Below are positions 34,073-51,436 of a stretch of DNA of 64,000 nucleotides, piece by piece. Numbering within the stretch: the first letter of the stretch is position 1; every line of letters starts with the position of its first letter. Below the pieces are notes generated by a model, which had not been told where the DNA came from, ran no database searches, and saw nothing but the letters and a program-made list of their open reading frames with translations. The DNA lies in IMG/VR virus record IMGVR_UViG_3300037418_000840; one strand, given 5' to 3'. A program made the translations under genes and the position numbers. This DNA is from a virus. Its lineage: Duplodnaviria; Caudoviricetes.

Positions 34073-34568
34073 CGAACTGATCGACCTCATGAACGATGCG
34101 AGTCGTTGGCCTAAGTCAGAGGTCGAAGCATTGACCTATCTGCTGCTTCTTCAATGGATCGAACGCGACTTCTACGCAGTGGAGCGGCCGAAGCCTAAGA
34201 TAACCGAGCGGAAGCTCTATCTAGGGCGACTGCGCAACCGTGTCGAAGCCGTTCGCCTCGAAGTGGTCAGGCGACATCCGCAGTTCGAATCGCCGAAGGA
34301 CTACACGTTGATGCTCAAGACCTGGAAAGACGTGCAGACGATTGCGGCTTCCGTAGTCCCCGGATCGAACGGCATTCACTCAGATGTAGCGCCGCCCATA
34401 CTGGCCGACGCGGTTACCGAACTGCTCGCCAATCACATGAACTTCAGTCGTGGCTACCCTGCTCTCTCGTGGGTAAAGAACGCGGCGCTGCTCAACATCA
34501 ACACCGTTGTCGCACCAAATCCTTCGGAGCCTCAAGATGGCCAAGACGAAGAAGACCCACACGCGTAA
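34053..34568 (+). CDS. hypothetical protein
   Basis: start MDNEVR. Confidence 0.6.
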   Translation: MDNEVRDELIDLMNDASRWPKSEVEALTYLLLLQWIERDFYAVERPKPKITERKLYLGRLRNRVEAVRLEVVRRHPQFESPKDYTLMLKTWKDVQTIAASVVPGSNGIHSDVAPPILADAVTELLANHMNFSRGYPALSWVKNAALLNINTVVAPNPSEPQDGQDEEDPHA

Positions 34569-35319
34569 CAAAGTTCAAGCCGGCCAGAAGCCCGATCCGA
34601 AAGACGGCAATGCCAAGGCTCGATACATCATGCACTACCGCATGAGCATCATGGCAGTGTTCCGGGCTATTCGTGAAGGACGCGTGTCCGAAGAAGAGCT
34701 CGATCGATTGCAGAATTTCTGTCAGTTCTCCCTCAACGCAATGCAGCGTTTGCCTATGACTGACATCCAAGGTGCTTGGCGTGATACCGAGATCTTCGGC
34801 CATATCCATGATGAAGAAGGTGCGACGTTCGTCGATCATCAGATCATCTTGGATCCAGCCAAGCAAGGACAGTCGGTGACCGCTGTCCAGTCGGAGACCA
34901 CGGCCAGCACCCCGTCTCAGCTACCGGGCCGCATCCGTGATTCGATCGACAAGTGGATCGATGAGGAATTCACTGCATACGAAAAGCTCGATGAAGTGGA
35001 GAAGGCGATGGTCCGCAACGCGGCGACTATGGCGTCTGGCCTTCAGGGTGACGTGACTCCCGATCAAATACTGGCGGGCAACACGCACAATACGACGGAG
35101 CTCTCTTTACTGCACGCTGATCTTGTGCAGACAATGCCTGCGGCCAGCACTCGTTTCACTGATGACCAGATGGAGTACAAACTATTCGGCTTCCTCTGGC
35201 ACGGTCGTAAGATTATTCTGTGCGATGACGGGATCGGTGTGTTCGTCAGTCGTTCAACAGCCCGCGAAGTGTATCGCACATACGGGCCAGCGCAATCAGC
35301 GACTGTGGTCGGTGCGTAA
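34537..35319 (+). CDS. hypothetical protein
   Basis: start MAKTKK. Confidence 0.65.
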   Translation: MAKTKKTHTRNKVQAGQKPDPKDGNAKARYIMHYRMSIMAVFRAIREGRVSEEELDRLQNFCQFSLNAMQRLPMTDIQGAWRDTEIFGHIHDEEGATFVDHQIILDPAKQGQSVTAVQSETTASTPSQLPGRIRDSIDKWIDEEFTAYEKLDEVEKAMVRNAATMASGLQGDVTPDQILAGNTHNTTELSLLHADLVQTMPAASTRFTDDQMEYKLFGFLWHGRKIILCDDGIGVFVSRSTAREVYRTYGPAQSATVVGA

Positions 35320-35322
35320 ATA
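35316..35322 (+). promoter_or_regulatory. GTAAATA late-type promoter ahead of ncRNAs
   Basis: recurrent motif placed a few nt before a structured RNA. Confidence 0.6.
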
Positions 35323-35324
35323 GG

Positions 35325-35441
35325 TAGGTCGAGATAGACAGTGATCGGTCCTTTCAACTAGCAGTACGTTAAAGCAACGAATCGGGTCGCAACTCACACG
35401 CCGGGTGAGATCTGGTTTTATCCCAGATCACTGCTTGACTA
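35325..35441 (+). ncRNA. Y-RNA-like structured RNA
   Basis: GTCGAG-(ATAGA bulge)-CAGTGATC pairs with GATCACTG-CTTGAC; internal hairpins. Confidence 0.5.
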
Positions 35442-35442
35442 A

Positions 35443-35519
35443 GATGGGGATAGTAGATCGGAGTAGACGCTCGCGCAACGCCTAGCACGAGAGAGGGGGT
35501 TCGACTCCCCACCCCATCC
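35443..35519 (+). ncRNA. tRNA-like RNA, aberrant D/anticodon arms, no CCA
   Basis: GATGGGG/CCCCATC acceptor, GGGGG-TTCGACT-CCCC T arm. Confidence 0.55.
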
Positions 35520-35539
35520 GATTAACCTAAGAGGTTCCT

Positions 35540-35854
35540 ATGAACATAAGTGAAGCATTTGTTGATGCCGATGCGTATCATGAAATCGGCAAGGCTATGG
35601 CAGCCTTTATTATGGAATCCGCACAGCGTCCGGGGTTCATGCGCACGTTGGAATTCCATCGAACCAATCACACGGTCGAGGAATTCACCAAGCAAGAACA
35701 GATCCAGGTCGATCGTATCAAACGGAAGCACCGTCACCTGACGTTGGTCGACGATCGCTACTTGGTACGCGCTCTCCGCCGCCAAGCCTATGCTGGTCCC
35801 AAGAGCACACGCCGTCGATACACCGCAGACCTCCGTCCGTACACTTCGGACTAA
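35540..35854 (+). CDS. hypothetical protein
   Basis: GAGG RBS. Confidence 0.6.
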   Translation: MNISEAFVDADAYHEIGKAMAAFIMESAQRPGFMRTLEFHRTNHTVEEFTKQEQIQVDRIKRKHRHLTLVDDRYLVRALRRQAYAGPKSTRRRYTADLRPYTSD

Positions 35855-35870
35855 CCAACAGTTCACTGCC

Positions 35871-36287
35871 ATGATCCCTGTCGATCAGGAGTTCATCCAT
35901 CGGCCAGATGAAGGACAGCACGGAGATTGCTTCCGTGCTGTCCTTGCGTCGCTTATGGAGCTCCCTCTTCAAGATGTTCCCCACTTTTTGCACGACGGCT
36001 GCTCGTCCGACACGTTTCATCGCCGGATCAACGCCTTTCTCGACCAGTTCAACATGACGCTCCTGGTGTTCGACGCGTCGACGTTCAACATTAGTGCGTG
36101 GATTGACCAGTCCGGAGTCCGTGATCTGTGGCACGAAGTGTCCGGCATGACCGAACGCGGGGTTCTTCATTCATGTGTGGGCCACAATGGTCACGTGGTC
36201 CACGATCCGCATCCTAGCAAGGCTGGTCTGATCGACGTCCAGTACTACAGCCTGCTCGTATCCATCAACCCTAAAGTTCAACGGTGA
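35871..36287 (+). CDS. hypothetical protein
   Basis: GDCFRAVLASL...HSCV pattern; possibly a papain-like fold. Confidence 0.6.
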   Translation: MIPVDQEFIHRPDEGQHGDCFRAVLASLMELPLQDVPHFLHDGCSSDTFHRRINAFLDQFNMTLLVFDASTFNISAWIDQSGVRDLWHEVSGMTERGVLHSCVGHNGHVVHDPHPSKAGLIDVQYYSLLVSINPKVQR

Positions 36288-37252: not shown

Positions 37253-37629
37253 ACGCCCCCACGTATTACATGCCCGTCCAGGTTGGTGACTACTACAAGT
37301 TGACGATCAACCGTTCGTTGAATCAACTGCGATGGGCATTCGACGGCCAATCAAGTAAGGGCTTAGACTACGTGGTTATCCGGGATGATCAACTGAAGTT
37401 CAGTCTTCGTTGGATGCATCCTGATGTCGACCACGTTCGGTGTACGGCCCTTGCCACGTTCGATAGTCCTTGGTCCGGTGCGTTCAACGATTACTGTCGA
37501 TTGTGTGTCGCTCGGTTCACAGTCGACGTCGAAGGACGCGAGCTCAAGCCATCAATTGTCTTCCTGGGACAGACATTCGTACCAGTTGCCAAGGTGCCCC
37601 TCACCTTAATCAAGGACATGTTCAAATGA
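37249..37629 (+). CDS. hypothetical protein
   Basis: ATGA coupling. Confidence 0.55.
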   Translation: MNAPTYYMPVQVGDYYKLTINRSLNQLRWAFDGQSSKGLDYVVIRDDQLKFSLRWMHPDVDHVRCTALATFDSPWSGAFNDYCRLCVARFTVDVEGRELKPSIVFLGQTFVPVAKVPLTLIKDMFK

Positions 37630-38606
37630 AACCCGTGTTTGCCGTACAGGTCACCAATCGTGATGACGAAGATCTTCATCAGACAGTGCGGGCCATCACC
37701 GGCGCTGGCTATGAATGGATCAACTTCGGAGTCGTTCCCTTCGAAGACTCGGTGACCAACGTCGAGGAGTTCCCAGCTGATCGTCCGGTGATCGTGTTAG
37801 GTGGGACGTTGGCACTTCGTCTTTATCAAGAGAACAAGTTGCCTCCGAACTGGTATATGTTCTATAGCTACTGGCTGTTCGATCAGCACTCGACCCAGCT
37901 GTCGCCGCTGAAGACCTACATGGTCAACGAAGATCCAGAGTTCTACACGTTCGATGACGTGCGTGACCGGGTTTTCAAGCACGACGTGTTTATCAAGCCG
38001 TCGTCAGACATGAAGGCTTTCGCAGGCACTCTGGTGTCGAAGGGTACGACACTCGAAGATCATCTTAAGACAGTGAATCACGCGCTGATCAAGCCCCATG
38101 AAATCATTATGGTGGCGTCGCCCATCCAACTCGGCTACGAATATCGTGTGTTCATTGTCAACAATAAGATCGTGGACTGTTCACAATATCGTAGTCCGCG
38201 TGGAGTCGAACATCGAGCAGTTGGGGTCGATACCGCAGTCAAGCTCAGCGAGTTCTTTGATGAGGTGAAGTCCTACATCGAGAGCACACCGCTGACCGGC
38301 ACCTACTGCATGGACGTGGCCGAGACCAAGAACGGCTATCGCATCGTCGAATTCAACTGCTTCAACTGCTGTGGCATGTACAGAGCCGATCGCGTGCTTG
38401 TCCTGAGTGAATTGGGGGGCCGTAGTCGAGGCAACGAAATGGGACTGACGTCGTACACCAAAAAGATGGTGGCCCATATAACGCTCTTCTCGATCTTGAC
38501 CATCATTGCCAAGTTTGACTCGACGCTGGCCCTCATCATTGCCTGTGTCTGGTTCTGCCCTTCTCCCAAAGCTGAAGAGACCAACAATGCCAAACGTAAA
38601 GAGTGA
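37626..38606 (+). CDS. ATP-grasp protein (R2K/DUF4343-like)
   Basis: VFIKPS..MKAFAG, EYRVFIV, MDVA...IVEFNCFN. Confidence 0.75.
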   Translation: MKPVFAVQVTNRDDEDLHQTVRAITGAGYEWINFGVVPFEDSVTNVEEFPADRPVIVLGGTLALRLYQENKLPPNWYMFYSYWLFDQHSTQLSPLKTYMVNEDPEFYTFDDVRDRVFKHDVFIKPSSDMKAFAGTLVSKGTTLEDHLKTVNHALIKPHEIIMVASPIQLGYEYRVFIVNNKIVDCSQYRSPRGVEHRAVGVDTAVKLSEFFDEVKSYIESTPLTGTYCMDVAETKNGYRIVEFNCFNCCGMYRADRVLVLSELGGRSRGNEMGLTSYTKKMVAHITLFSILTIIAKFDSTLALIIACVWFCPSPKAEETNNAKRKE

Positions 38607-43230: not shown

Positions 43231-43327
43231 AGTAGTTCGTCTCTGAGGCGTTGGGTCAGCACCAACCGGCTCTCTCGTGGATACGAGGGGGCTGTGGTCT
43301 AGCGGTAAGGGCGCAGGGACGAACGCT
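43231..43327 (+). ncRNA. circularly permuted tRNA mimic (YrlA-like topology)
   Basis: order: closing stem, T-like arm, loop-closed acceptor-like stem, D arm, closing stem. Confidence 0.7.
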
Positions 43328-46980: not shown

Positions 46981-47814
46981 ATGGCACGACTCCCACGGCT
47001 CTACATTCCTGGTCAGGCACAGTACGTCATCCTGCAAACGATAGACGAACGTCCCGCATTCGTGAACGATTCCGACTACGAATTCTTCCTCGAATGTGTT
47101 CGAGACGCTGTGCCGGTGGCAGACATAGCAATTCATGCGTATGCTCTTCTGCCAAACGCCGTTCATATGATGGTCACACCTTCGACTGAGACGTGTCTGC
47201 CGCTATTCATGCAGACTGTAGGTCGTCGTTACGTGGCGCGTTTCAATCGCGAACACGGTCGGAGAGGCACCATCTGGGCAGGTCGTTATCGTGCGACGGC
47301 CATCGAGGGATCTTCGTGGGGTATCTTCGCCTATCAGTACATCGACAAGCTAGTGCCTCGTTCCGAGGCCACAGCCTTGAAGTCGACCCTTGGTCTTCAC
47401 ATAGGGATCGAAGGATCAACGTTCGTAGTTCATCGTCCAGAATATTGGGCGCTTGGAAATACGCCGTTCGATCGTCAACACGTATATCGCCTTATGTGCG
47501 ATCAGGAACTCGATCCGACTCGCATCGAACTGCTGATCGATGCGGCTACACGCGGCTGGGCTCTTGGTAGTCCTGAGTATCTAGCCTGGGCCGCCACGGT
47601 CGCCAATCGTCGAATCGGCAAGATGAAGCGCGGTCGCCCACGCAAAGATGGAACTCCGCGACAAGTTGACGTTCGTACAGTAGCGAAATCCAACGCTCCG
47701 GCTGTGTCAACGGTTAATCCGTCAACAACAGAGCAAGCACCCCGCGTTTTGAGCGTTCCAACTGTGTGGCCCACTTTCCCTTCTCTCCATGGACAATCAA
47801 ATGACGATCAGTAA
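46981..47814 (+). CDS. RAYT/Y1-type transposase homologue with degenerate HUH motif
   Basis: MARLPRL, HAY.L.PNAVH, MQTVGRRYV..FN, G..W.GRY, YWALGNTPF, RGRPRK. Confidence 0.8.
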   Translation: MARLPRLYIPGQAQYVILQTIDERPAFVNDSDYEFFLECVRDAVPVADIAIHAYALLPNAVHMMVTPSTETCLPLFMQTVGRRYVARFNREHGRRGTIWAGRYRATAIEGSSWGIFAYQYIDKLVPRSEATALKSTLGLHIGIEGSTFVVHRPEYWALGNTPFDRQHVYRLMCDQELDPTRIELLIDAATRGWALGSPEYLAWAATVANRRIGKMKRGRPRKDGTPRQVDVRTVAKSNAPAVSTVNPSTTEQAPRVLSVPTVWPTFPSLHGQSNDDQ

Positions 47815-48142: not shown

Positions 48143-48192
48143 TCGCACGTGGCCCTGGCGGCTAACGACCCCTGTTCAAGTAGTAAATAGTG

Positions 48193-48228
48193 AGCGCCAC
48201 GCCCGTTTGGGTCTGGCGCTTTCTTTTT
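48193..48228 (+). terminator. intrinsic terminator
   Basis: AGCGCCA/TGGCGCT stem + TTCTTTTT. Confidence 0.65.
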
Positions 48229-50521: not shown

Positions 50522-51436
50522 ATGAATTTCACATTCTGCTGGGGTAAGCGTTTCACACAGGCCGCGTTCATAGCATGGATGGCTCACACGTCAGCGATCG
50601 CGGCACCTGTCGGCATCGCATCGGGCCAGCCTTCTGGTACGAACTATCCGATGGCGGCTGACATTGCGCGCGTGTGCTCGACTCCGCAGTCGCCGATTCA
50701 CAACGTTGTTAGCGACGGTTCGCTCGACAATCTCGCCAAGGTCTACGGCGATAAGAACGTCCAGTACGGTATCGTCCAGACCGATGCCCTGATGTACCAA
50801 CAGGGTGTCGATCCGAAGATGATGGACCGCATTCAAATGGTATTTCCCTTCTTCTCGTCGGAGATCCATTTGATTGTCCGTGCGAATTCGTCCATCCAGT
50901 CCTTGAACGATTTGGCAGGCAAACGCGTGGACGAAGACGTGGAGGGCAGTGGTTCTTGGGTCAGTGTCCAGGTCATCAAGTCATTGACCAGTCTACATTG
51001 GAACGCGGTCAACATGCAGCAGGCTGACGGCCTTCGCGCAGTTGAATCGGGTGCGGTCGACGCTATGTTCGTCAACGCGGGCCGCCCGATCAGCATGTTG
51101 ACCAGCGCGTCAGGTGTCCGCCTCGTATCGATCAGCAATCCGAAGCTCGACGCGTTTGGCCTCTATACGAGATCGGTGATTCCGAGCGGCAGCTATCCGT
51201 TTCAGACACAGTCGATCACCACGTACAAGACGGGTAACGTCCTGGTCACATACGCGTTCAAGAATCAGTATCAGAAGGAGATCGGCGAGCTCGTGTCGTG
51301 TGTGATGCACAAACTACCTGAGCTCCAACAGACGGGGCACCAGAAGTGGAAGAACGTGGACCCGACGGATATCGAACGCATCAAGTGGCAAGTGCATCCG
51401 GCAGCATTGGCAGCCATCAGACGAGGATCCAAATGA
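50522..51436 (+). CDS. TAXI-family TRAP solute-binding protein
   Basis: signal-like N-terminus, IASGQPSGTNY, DGSLDN, GIVQTDAL, EIHLIVR. Confidence 0.8.
   Translation: MNFTFCWGKRFTQAAFIAWMAHTSAIAAPVGIASGQPSGTNYPMAADIARVCSTPQSPIHNVVSDGSLDNLAKVYGDKNVQYGIVQTDALMYQQGVDPKMMDRIQMVFPFFSSEIHLIVRANSSIQSLNDLAGKRVDEDVEGSGSWVSVQVIKSLTSLHWNAVNMQQADGLRAVESGAVDAMFVNAGRPISMLTSASGVRLVSISNPKLDAFGLYTRSVIPSGSYPFQTQSITTYKTGNVLVTYAFKNQYQKEIGELVSCVMHKLPELQQTGHQKWKNVDPTDIERIKWQVHPAALAAIRRGSK

What the first reader, a model, noticed from the sequence alone, without database searches (positions are those of the whole stretch)
35325..35441. Y-RNA-like RNA under its own late promoter
A few nt after GTAAATA (35316), GTCGAG (35328-33), an ATAGA bulge and CAGTGATC (35339-46) pair with GATCACTG-CTTGAC (35426-39). 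A GUCGA/UUGAC helix next to a bulge resembles the Ro60-binding stem of Y RNAs, and the roughly 117-nt size fits. The interior has hairpins CGTT/AACG and CTCAC/GTGAG plus a competing GATCTGG/CCAGATC hairpin (possible switch). It sits directly upstream of a tRNA-like RNA, much as Y RNAs are often co-transcribed with tRNA-like partners. No Ro60 gene is visible in this window.
Basis: partly seen in the sequence, partly recalled or inferred. Interest (0 to 1): 0.7.

Follow-up and report, generated by a model that had tools for sequence, protein, structure and literature searches.

The report
Conserved phage small RNA, not shown Y RNA
An uncultured soil jumbo phage carries a real, conserved 114-base folded RNA fused to a tRNA look-alike behind a phage promoter, but none of the tests run here supports it being a Ro60-binding Y RNA, so its job is still open.

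Summary
The helices GGUCGAG/CUUGACU and CAGUGAUC/GAUCACUG, with the AUAGA bulge between them, are present at the stated coordinates. A GTAAATA(G) motif lies 4 nt upstream; it occurs 21 times in the window against 1.6 expected, always on the coding strand, and sits 11-17 nt before five tRNA genes.

In the window alone the fold is only marginal (z -1.5; about 4% of shuffles match it). Four further distinct versions from related uncultured phages settle the matter. All have the same promoter, 7-bp basal helix, 5-6 nt bulge, second helix, single A bulge and a tRNA-like element 2 nt downstream. 98% of cells pair, and six pairs carry compensatory changes.

The Y RNA reading is not supported:
- Rfam Y_RNA and YrlA models give no match.
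- The Ro60-contact motif (GGUCCGA, GNCGAA, CGAA) is 5 of 6 in the window and absent in the relatives (GUCAGG, GUUAGG).
- The window has no TROVE gene, and neither do five complete related phages.
- The tRNA-like part lies outside the stem, not nested and permuted as in YrlA.

Best reading: a new phage small-RNA family whose 3' end is cut free by RNase P at the fused, CCA-less tRNA mimic. Its partner is unknown. The scan holds no look-alike on other DNA. One earlier follow-up report on a stretch that overlaps or touches this one exists and was withheld.

The parts
35316..35323 (+). Promoter-like motif GTAAATAG, overlapping the stop codon of the upstream 260-aa gene
   Evidence: GTAAATA occurs 21 times in the window against 1.6 expected, and no shuffle reached that. 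Every copy is on the local coding strand. Five copies lie 11-17 nt before mature tRNA 5' ends. The motif is kept as GTAAATAG-NNN-GGT in all five related units.
35327..35333 (+). P1, 5' strand (GGUCGAG); the transcript probably starts 0-4 nt upstream
   Evidence: Pairs with 35434-35440. All 7 pairs are standard in all 5 sequences. The sixth pair switches A-U to G-C. The fifth pair is G.U here and A-U in the relatives and in the close variant G35331A.
35334..35338 (+). 5-nt 5'-side bulge AUAGA (GCAAAC, GUAAGA or GCGAAA in the relatives)
   Evidence: Unpaired in every MFE fold. Its position is conserved and its sequence is purine-rich but variable.
35339..35348 (+). P2 (CAGUGAUC) and P2b (GG), 5' strands
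   Evidence: Pairs with 35426-35433 and 35423-35424. Five pairs of this helix show changes on both sides across the relatives.
35349..35422 (+). Apical domain. Proposed P3 is AACUAG 35356-35361 with CUGGUU 35412-35417. Hairpins at 35367-35379 and 35393-35409. GGGUCGC at 35384-35390.
   Evidence: All five sequences fold on their own into the same rod with an apical hairpin. The apical hairpin covaries among the relatives (GCGCC/GGCGU against GCGCG/CGCGU). GGGUCRC is shared by all five. Alignment of this part between the window and the relatives is uncertain.
35423..35440 (+). 3' strands of P2b (CC), bulged A35425, P2 (GAUCACUG) and P1 (CUUGACU)
   Evidence: The single A bulge and (C/U)UGACU are present in all five sequences.
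35443..35519 (+). CCA-less tRNA-like element: 7-bp acceptor 35443-49/35512-18, stemless D region with GG at 35460-61, stem CUCG/CGAG 35470-73/35488-91 with an oversized loop, T arm 35495-35511
   Evidence: ARAGORN calls it only at a lowered threshold. Rfam gives tRNA-Sec at 20 bits, E 0.5. The acceptor stem differs completely yet pairs in all the relatives: GAUGGGG, UGGAGGG, GUGACCU, CGAUCAG, CGACCAG. The L010 version reaches the Rfam tRNA threshold at 35 bits. All 20 canonical tRNAs of the window encode CCA; this element does not.
35531..35854 (+). Ribosome-binding site (GAGG 35531-34) and gene for a conserved basic 104-aa helical protein, co-oriented and probably co-transcribed
   Evidence: A homolog lies downstream of the RNA in all six loci. 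In two loci (L010, L019) another gene separates it from the RNA.

Best explanation
Bases 35327-35440 form the first domain of a conserved two-domain RNA unit of about 195 nt (35327-35519). The unit belongs to a small clade of uncultured soil and rhizosphere jumbo phages related to Ralstonia phage phiRSL1.

Domain 1 is an irregular rod. From base to tip it has a 7-bp basal helix (GGUYRRG / CYUGACU), a 5-6 nt bulge on the 5' side, a 7-8 bp helix, one bulged A, a 2-4 bp helix, internal loops and an apical hairpin. Domain 2 starts 2 nt later and is a tRNA look-alike without CCA and without a usable anticodon loop.

Proposed mechanism. Transcription starts at the GTAAATAG promoter, within a few nt of the first base of the basal helix. 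Host RNase P cuts at the 5' end of the tRNA-like acceptor stem (G35443). This releases domain 1 as a stable small RNA of about 116 nt with both ends locked in a helix and a 2-nt 3' tail. The downstream message for the basic 104-aa protein is left behind the tRNA-like part. Domain 1 then most likely acts as a protein-binding scaffold or decoy, but its partner is not known.

Shown: the structure, its conservation and covariation, the promoter-motif statistics, the fusion to a tRNA-like element, and the absence of Y RNA hallmarks.
Inferred: the transcription start, the RNase P cut, release as a free RNA, and the scaffold role.
For: Structure and covariation:
- 98.1% of cells paired and 6 pairs with double changes; slid controls 24-34%.
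- RNAalifold consensus of the four relatives.
- The same architecture in five independent MFE folds.

Homology of the window element:
- It is the top full-length hit of a model built only from the relatives, at exactly 35327-35440. The score is weak: 13.9 bits, E 0.067, filters off.
- It has the same promoter, the same flanking genes and the same type of tRNA-like element.

Selection: a 98%-identical strain has only 2 changes listed in the 220-nt intergenic region, against 8 in the 54 nt before it. One of the two, G35331A, turns a G.U pair into A-U.

Promoter.

Modularity: L019 has a domain 1 identical to that of L017, but an HNH endonuclease cassette has cut the old tRNA-like element and brought a different one into the same position. 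The site therefore still carries a tRNA-like element directly behind domain 1, whatever its sequence.

A 7-bp acceptor stem plus T arm is the RNase P determinant named in PMC4201824. That paper also shows a Y RNA cut by RNase P and a Y RNA co-transcribed with a tRNA.
Against: - There is no direct evidence for transcription or for RNA ends. The RNA-library contigs that cover the site start upstream of the promoter, are at depth 3, and were selected with this very query.
- Only five distinct sequences exist, four of them close to one another, and the alignment used for counting was fitted to the structure.
- A unit that is never cleaved, working as a 5' leader, explains the same data.
- Conservation of GGU at the start of the basal helix may reflect the promoter's initiation region, since GGT(A/G) follows many copies of the motif, rather than a binding site.
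- No partner protein was identified.
Confidence: 0.55

Rival explanations
1. It is a true Y RNA, of the long-hairpin YrlB/Yrn2 type or a tandem version of YrlA. The basal helix and bulge bind a Ro60/Rsr ring protein encoded by the host or elsewhere in the phage. The tRNA-like part serves as the effector module or the processing signal.
For: - A basal helix made from the 5' and 3' parts, next to a bulge.
- The window's GGUCGAG/CUUGACU gives, in order, the pairs G.U, G-C, U-A, C-G, G.U, A-U. From my own recall of the human Y1 sequence, not checked with a tool, these are the pairs of its conserved helix minus the bulged C.
- GUCGA fits 5 of the 6 fixed positions of GNCGAA (PMC4201824).
- In D. 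radiodurans, Yrn2 is co-transcribed with a tRNA (PMC4201824).
- Relatives phiRSL1 and BcepSauron/BcepSaruman encode RtcB. phiRSL1 also has a sub-threshold YrlA-model hit with permuted tRNA order.
Against: - No Y_RNA or YrlA match at E<=10 in the window or E<=1 in the relatives.
- The CGA of the contact motif is not conserved: GUCAAG in the 98% variant and GUCAGG or GUUAGG in the four relatives. Each CGAA base matters for phage Ro60 binding (PMC12135203).
- No bulged C.
- No TROVE ORF in the 64-kb window, although nearly all the best YrlA matches lie within 4 kb of Ro60 on the same strand (PMC4201824).
- No TROVE in five complete related genomes.
- The tRNA-like domain is outside the stem and in normal order.
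Confidence: 0.08
2. The unit is not released. It is a cis-acting 5' leader of the downstream operon. It might stabilise the message through a paired 5' end and a nuclease-resistant tRNA fold, or serve as an operator bound by the basic 104-aa protein encoded just behind it.
For: - The unit lies between the promoter and the ribosome-binding site, 11 nt from the tRNA-like 3' end.
- A homolog of the basic protein follows in all six loci.
- The protein is arginine- and lysine-rich and helical.
- A small AACC/GGUU hairpin can cover the ribosome-binding site in the window fold.
Against: - In L010 a 119-aa gene, and in L019 an HNH endonuclease gene, sit between the RNA and the basic-protein gene, so the RNA is not tied to that start site.
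- A stabiliser needs only a short hairpin, not a conserved 114-nt rod plus a tRNA-like fold.
- A 7-bp acceptor stem with a T arm is expected to be cut by RNase P.
Confidence: 0.2
3. The tRNA-like element is the working product, for example a decoy for host tRNA-targeting defences or tRNA-binding enzymes. Domain 1 is only its structured 5' leader and is discarded after RNase P cleavage.
For: - Earlier notes of this scan, which I did not test, report several other CCA-less tRNA mimics in the same phage.
- The tRNA-like loop keeps a GCCU(A)G motif in both types.
- A possible G19-C56 to U19-A56 tertiary covariation between the window and L011 supports a folded elbow (read).
Against: - Domain 1 is itself under selection for structure. 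Leaders of the canonical tRNAs here are only 11-17 nt.
- Domain 1 stays identical while the tRNA-like part is swapped between L017 and L019. This makes domain 1 the constant partner and the tRNA-like part the exchangeable one.
Confidence: 0.12
4. It is a chance inverted repeat, or a decaying remnant of tRNA genes, with no function.
For: The window sequence alone is barely better than shuffles. MFE of the whole leader has z -0.2.
Against: - Compensatory changes in three helices and in the acceptor stem across phages whose flanking proteins are only 44-58% identical.
- Fewer substitutions than in the flanking coding sequence in a close strain.
Confidence: 0.03

Closest known systems
Long-hairpin bacterial Y RNAs (D. 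radiodurans Yrn2, Salmonella and M. smegmatis YrlB; Chen et al. 2014, PMC4201824)
   Same: A small RNA whose 5' and 3' parts pair into a long interrupted stem with a bulge near the base. Yrn2 is made from one precursor together with a tRNA.
   Different: The Ro60-contact sequence is not conserved, no TROVE gene is linked, the apical loop is not pyrimidine-rich, and no Rfam match was found.
YrlA (Rfam RF02553), the bacterial and phage Y RNA with a tRNA-like domain
   Same: It combines a stem module with a tRNA-like module. M. smegmatis YrlA has a 7-bp acceptor stem and is cut by RNase P.
   Different: In YrlA the tRNA-like part is nested inside the closing stem, in permuted order and with a sealed acceptor stem. 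Here it follows the closed stem, in normal order and with open ends. The GNCGAA motif and Ro60 linkage are absent.
ncRNAs matured by a fused tRNA-like element (MALAT1-mascRNA; MHV68 tRNA-miRNA TMERs).
   Same: A tRNA look-alike sits directly beside a structured ncRNA, so a tRNA-processing enzyme can define the ncRNA end.
   Different: Those are eukaryotic or herpesviral. In TMERs the order is reversed, with the tRNA-like part first and RNase Z doing the cutting. No processing data exist for the phage unit.
Phage T4 RNAC and RNAD, small stable RNAs of the tRNA region (PMC3014915, PMC9697503)
   Same: Phage-encoded small RNAs of unknown function that are transcribed from the tRNA gene region.
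   Different: No sequence or structure relation was shown. The T4 RNAs lie inside the tRNA cluster, whereas this unit lies 4.6 kb upstream of the cluster with its own promoter.

Membership tests
Y RNA (metazoan type, Rfam RF00019) | The 5' and 3' ends pair to form a basal helix | tested here: met
   P1, P2 and P2b are in the MFE and centroid folds. They are conserved with covariation.
Y RNA (metazoan type, Rfam RF00019) | Conserved Ro60-contact sequence GGUCCGA with a bulged C on the 5' strand (Stein 2005, as cited in PMC4201824) | tested here: not met
   The window has GGUCGAG without a bulged C. The 98% variant has GGUCAAG. The relatives have GGUCAGG or GGUUAGG.
Y RNA (metazoan type, Rfam RF00019) | Match to the family covariance model | tested here: not met
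   No RF00019 hit at E<=10 in 34800-36000, none at E<=1 in five related loci, and none in five related phage genomes.
YrlA (Rfam RF02553) | GNCGAAN0-1G motif near the 5' end | tested here: not met
   The window's GUCGAG fits 5 of the 6 fixed positions. The motif is absent from the 5' strand in all four relatives. L020 alone has CGAA, in its bulge, and it is not followed by G.
YrlA (Rfam RF02553) | tRNA-like domain nested in the closing stem in permuted order (V, T, sealed acceptor, D) | tested here: not met
   The tRNA-like element at 35443-35519 lies 3' of the closed stem, in the normal order acceptor, D, anticodon arm, T, acceptor.
YrlA (Rfam RF02553) | Encoded within about 4 kb of a TROVE/Ro60 gene on the same strand | tested here: not met
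   No PF05731 hit in any of the 34 window ORFs scanned, which include every ORF of at least 274 aa. The window extends 35 kb upstream and 28 kb downstream of the element.
YrlA (Rfam RF02553) | Match to the family covariance model | tested here: not met
   No RF02553 hit.
Any Ro60-Y RNA system | A Ro60/Rsr protein in the phage or its host that binds the RNA | not testable with these tools
   The phage's full 231.6-kb genome is not held and the host is unknown. The five nearest complete phages lack TROVE. Binding needs an experiment.
tRNA (Rfam RF00005), for the fused element | Cloverleaf with a 7-nt anticodon loop, above the model threshold, and encoded CCA like the phage's own tRNAs | tested here: not met
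   There is no RF00005 hit, only tRNA-Sec at 20 bits. ARAGORN calls it only at -ps80, with a poor anticodon stem. It has no CCA, while all 20 canonical tRNAs do. The L010 homolog does pass, at 35 bits.
ncRNA with tRNA-like-guided end formation (mascRNA type) | A tRNA-like fold with acceptor stem and T arm directly adjoining the ncRNA | tested here: met
   A 2-nt spacer between P1 and a 7-bp acceptor stem in all five versions.
ncRNA with tRNA-like-guided end formation (mascRNA type) | Cleavage by RNase P that releases the ncRNA | not testable with these tools
   Only contigs from RNA libraries were available. They cannot show RNA ends.

The most novel reading that the evidence does not exclude
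The unit is a tandem-architecture analogue of YrlA. A stem-and-bulge module that docks a ring-shaped RNA-binding protein (host Rsr or an unrecognised phage protein) is joined side by side, rather than nested, to a tRNA mimic that recruits a host nuclease such as PNPase. This would let a jumbo phage that has no Ro60 gene of its own redirect host RNA decay or repair.
Probability: 0.08. Interest if true: 0.8.

Novelty: new variant of a known kind. Interest (0 to 1): 0.45.

Why it matters
Structured small RNAs of phages are few and mostly of unknown function. This one has a defined promoter, a covariation-supported fold and a built-in tRNA-like module, so it can be cloned and tested directly. A homing endonuclease cassette that destroys the old tRNA-like element brings its own replacement to the same spot. 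This suggests that the junction between the small RNA and the tRNA-like element is what selection keeps. If the RNA proves to bind a host factor, it would add a new way for jumbo phages to manipulate host RNA metabolism. If it is only a leader, it still shows how tRNA-like folds are reused in phage transcripts. The result also warns that a helix of the GGUC/GACU type next to a bulge is not enough to call a Y RNA.

Tried and rejected
- blastn of 35200-35650 against 50,697 phage records gave no match.
- An exact scan of IMG/VR with the tRNA-like 3' part gave none. The search for related loci with the 260-aa protein in IMG/VR gave none.
- The composite pattern in IMG/VR gave 5 hits. Three are tandem tRNAs. 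Two (L013 and the identical L015) look spurious; models R1 and R2 do not score L013.
- The promoter+P1+P1' pattern gave none in IMG/VR. In metagenome contigs it gave only L022, identical to L017, and a spurious L021. In 185,579 species genomes it gave none. A pattern for the tRNA-like junction in IMG/VR gave none.
- Models R1 and R2 gave no hit in phiRSL1, BcepSauron, BcepSaruman, BCSR5 or Motura. R2 found no second copy in the window or in L009. The most distant syntenic contig, L009, has the promoter but no RNA unit.
- The genome search cannot reach the window's own genome or the Logan, ENA and JGI contigs, so a whole-genome TROVE search was not possible.
- RNA-library contigs (X4, X12, X15, all one study) cover 35229-36075 at depth about 3. 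The runs were picked with this query, the contigs start upstream of the promoter, and DNA carry-over cannot be excluded, so nothing is claimed about expression or ends.
- Partner search:
  - The 104-aa protein has no Pfam or PHROG family. Its AlphaFold model has pLDDT 69.6 and gave no Foldseek PDB match at E below 8. The ESM Atlas gave only weak 0.76 hits.
  - The 260-aa protein model was too poor to use, with pLDDT 41.
- The 'switch' hairpin GATCTGG/CCAGATC has no counterpart in the relatives and was dropped.
- Other readings were considered and dropped because no Rfam family matched, ARAGORN found no tmRNA, and I saw no core motifs by eye. These were tmRNA, 6S RNA, self-cleaving ribozymes and riboswitches.
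- The supplementary tables of Chen et al. 2014 are not held, so I could not check which host genera carry Rsr.

Full report
**Context**

The window is part of an uncultured jumbo phage. Its DNA polymerase is 58% identical to those of Ralstonia phage phiRSL1 and Burkholderia phages BcepSauron and BcepSaruman, and less so to BCSR5 and Achromobacter phage Motura. The window also holds topoisomerase II subunits, helicases and 20 tRNA genes. No whole genome is held. The same phage occurs, 100% identical over 35250-35560, in two Logan assemblies. Its protein cluster reports a longest contig of 231,605 bp. Sequencing runs that hold the stretch are labelled rhizosphere, root or soil metagenomes where an organism is recorded.

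**The observation**

The finding lies in the 220-nt gap between a 260-aa gene (34537-35319) and a 104-aa gene (35540-35854). The exact coordinates are in the observation check and the parts list.

RNAfold places the terminal two-part helix in both the MFE and the centroid structure. On its own this is weak. The z-score is -1.54, and 11 of 300 shuffles of the gap give an equally long bulged helix.

**The promoter**

- GTAAATA occurs 21 times in the window against 1.6 expected, and no shuffle reached that.
- All copies left of about 30 kb are on the minus strand and all copies to the right are on the plus strand, which follows gene direction.
- Five copies lie 11-17 nt before mature tRNA 5' ends. 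Others precede the DNA polymerase and helicase genes.

It is therefore a credible phage promoter element, and the RNA has one 4 nt before its basal helix. Nothing supports the word 'late'. The genes it serves here are replication genes and tRNAs.

**Relatives**

- The flanking proteins have few homologs in 5.8 billion proteins.
- Fetching their contigs gave five more loci with the same unit: L011, L010, L017 (identical to L018 and L022), L019 and L020.
- The flanking proteins in these loci are only 44-58% identical to the window's.

All units read GTAAATAG, three bases, and GGUYRRG. Then come a 5-6 nt bulge, a 7-8 bp helix, a 4-bp helix (2 bp in the window), an apical domain, one bulged A on the return strand, CYUGACU, two bases, and a tRNA-like element.

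- The second helix is CAGUGAUC, CACGGCA, CAUAGCA or CACUGCA, and the 3' strand changes to match each time.
- The third helix changes from CGGG/CCCG to UGGG/CCCA.
- The sixth pair of the basal helix changes from A-U to G-C.

On a model-guided alignment, 98.1% of cells pair and six pairs show changes on both sides. No shuffle out of 500 matches this, and sliding the partner strand drops pairing to 24-34%. RNAalifold on the four relatives gives the same structure. Each of the five sequences folds alone into the same rod.

Two caveats apply. There are only five sequences, four of them close to one another, and the alignment was fitted to the structure.

A covariance model built only from the four relatives finds the window element as its best full-length hit at exactly 35327-35440. 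The score is weak, at 13.9 bits and E 0.067 with filters off. Homology therefore rests mainly on synteny and shared architecture.

A 98%-identical strain shows two listed substitutions in the 220-nt gap, against eight in the 54 nt before it. One of the two, G35331A, converts a G.U pair of the basal helix to A-U.

**The tRNA-like element**

- It has a perfect 7-bp acceptor stem, a T arm with GGUUCGACUCC, and a D region with GG but no stem.
- Its anticodon-side stem carries an oversized loop, and it has no CCA. All 20 canonical tRNAs of the window encode CCA.
- Its acceptor stem differs completely between relatives yet always pairs.
- Two types exist. Type A is in the window, L011 and L017. Type B is in L010, L019 and L020, and the L010 copy passes the Rfam tRNA threshold at 35 bits.
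- Between the window and L011, the second G of the D-loop GG becomes U while the T-loop C becomes A. This would keep the 19-56 elbow pair. It is an inference.
- L019 has a first domain identical to that of L017. A cassette holding a type B element and a 177-aa ORF that matches an HNH endonuclease PHROG (E 1e-9) has been inserted into the D region of the type A element. The 3' two-thirds of the type A element remain after the ORF.

The first domain and the tRNA-like part are therefore separable modules, and the position directly behind the first domain always holds a tRNA-like fold.

**Is it a Y RNA?**

Chen et al. 2014 (PMC4201824) give these hallmarks:
- A GNCGAAN0-1G motif near the 5' end, related to the vertebrate GGUCCGA that Ro60 contacts mainly on the 5' strand.
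- For YrlA, a tRNA-like domain nested in the stem in permuted order.
- A location within 4 kb of the Ro60 gene on the same strand.

The Thermus phage study (PMC12135203) shows that each base of CGAA contributes to binding.

Here the window reads GUCGAG, which is 5 of 6 fixed positions. The close strain reads GUCAAG, and the four relatives read GUCAGG or GUUAGG, so the contact bases are not conserved. There is no bulged C.

- Rfam Y_RNA and YrlA give no match at E<=10 in the window region or at E<=1 in the relatives.
- No TROVE hit appeared in any window ORF of at least 274 aa or in the other ORFs scanned.
- None of the five complete related phage genomes has a TROVE gene or a Y_RNA match.
- The tRNA-like part is outside the closed stem and in normal order.

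- The general stem-bulge-stem shape.
- The GGUC/GACU base of the helix.
- The precedent of Yrn2 being co-transcribed with a tRNA.
- RtcB in phiRSL1, BcepSauron and BcepSaruman.
- A sub-threshold YrlA-model hit with true permuted order in phiRSL1 (32 bits, E 4e-6).
- An earlier, untested note of a permuted tRNA-like fold at 43235-43324 of this same window.

The rest of the phage genome and the host could not be searched. I put the Ro60-binding reading at about 8%.

**Most likely mechanism**

A transcript starts at the GTAAATAG promoter within a few nt of the basal helix. RNase P cuts at the acceptor 5' end (G35443). Domain 1 is released with both ends paired and a 2-nt tail, and the downstream message remains. 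This matches how tRNA-like elements mature neighbouring ncRNAs in other systems, and it matches the RNase P cleavage shown for M. smegmatis YrlA (PMC4201824). It is inferred, not shown. What domain 1 then does is unknown. A protein scaffold or decoy role is my best guess.

Three rivals remain. The unit could be an uncleaved 5' leader or an operator for the basic 104-aa protein (about 0.2). The tRNA mimic could be the real product, with domain 1 only its leader (about 0.12). It could be chance (about 0.03).

**Novelty**

No Rfam family matches, no annotated phage carries the unit, and the scan's own index holds no look-alike on other DNA. An earlier follow-up report on a stretch that overlaps or touches this one exists and was withheld. 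The family is small, with five distinct sequences, all from uncultured phages. I rate it a new variant of a known kind: a phage-encoded structured small RNA coupled to a tRNA-like processing module. It is of moderate interest.

Noticed in passing
L019:4060-4760 (compare L017:9906-9990): A cassette holding a type-B tRNA-like element and a 177-aa ORF that matches an HNH endonuclease PHROG (E 1e-9) is inserted into the D region of the type-A tRNA-like element. The old 3' two-thirds remain after the ORF. The mobile element thus replaces the tRNA-like fold that it destroys.
   Followed up: partly
NC_010811.2 (phiRSL1) 189269-189396, minus strand; L023:1770-1897: In the 485-nt gap between ORF270 and ORF269, the Rfam YrlA model gives a full-length sub-threshold hit (32 bits, E 4e-6). 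The order is permuted: T arm, long sealed acceptor-like hairpin, then D arm. The phiRSL1 genome has RtcB but no TROVE gene.
   Followed up: partly
window 35901-35948, + strand: A strong hairpin (GGACAGCACGGA / UCCGUGCUGUCC) lies inside the coding region of the 138-aa gene. It is picked up by three miRNA models and by model R1 at 13 bits. Its purpose is unknown.
   Followed up: no
window, 21 sites (e.g. 40577, 40947, 43584, 12042 minus): Many GTAAATA copies are followed within 1-6 nt by GGT(A/G)(A/G)G, for example GGTAAG before three tRNAs. This may be the initiation region of this promoter class. It may also explain why the first bases of the RNA's basal helix do not vary.
   Followed up: partly
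window 48183-48226, + strand: A GTAAATA promoter is followed at once by a GC-rich hairpin and a T run (GCGCCA...TGGCGC TTTCTTTTT) ahead of the gene at 48227. This looks like a terminator or attenuator in a leader.
   Followed up: no
window 46981-47814 and 50522-51436, + strand: Two unusual cargo genes for a lytic jumbo phage. One is an IS200-like Y1 transposase domain (PF01797, E 1e-5). The other is an NMT1_3 family protein of the solute-binding type (PF16868, E 2e-20).
   Followed up: no
window 37470-38606; L017:11411-12645: An R2K-clade ATP-grasp enzyme (PF18299, PF14243) lies 2 kb downstream of the RNA in every related locus. In L017 and L019 a protein with a 'Sequestin' domain (PF21825) follows it. 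A possible link to the RNA island that runs on to the tRNA cluster was not examined.
   Followed up: no
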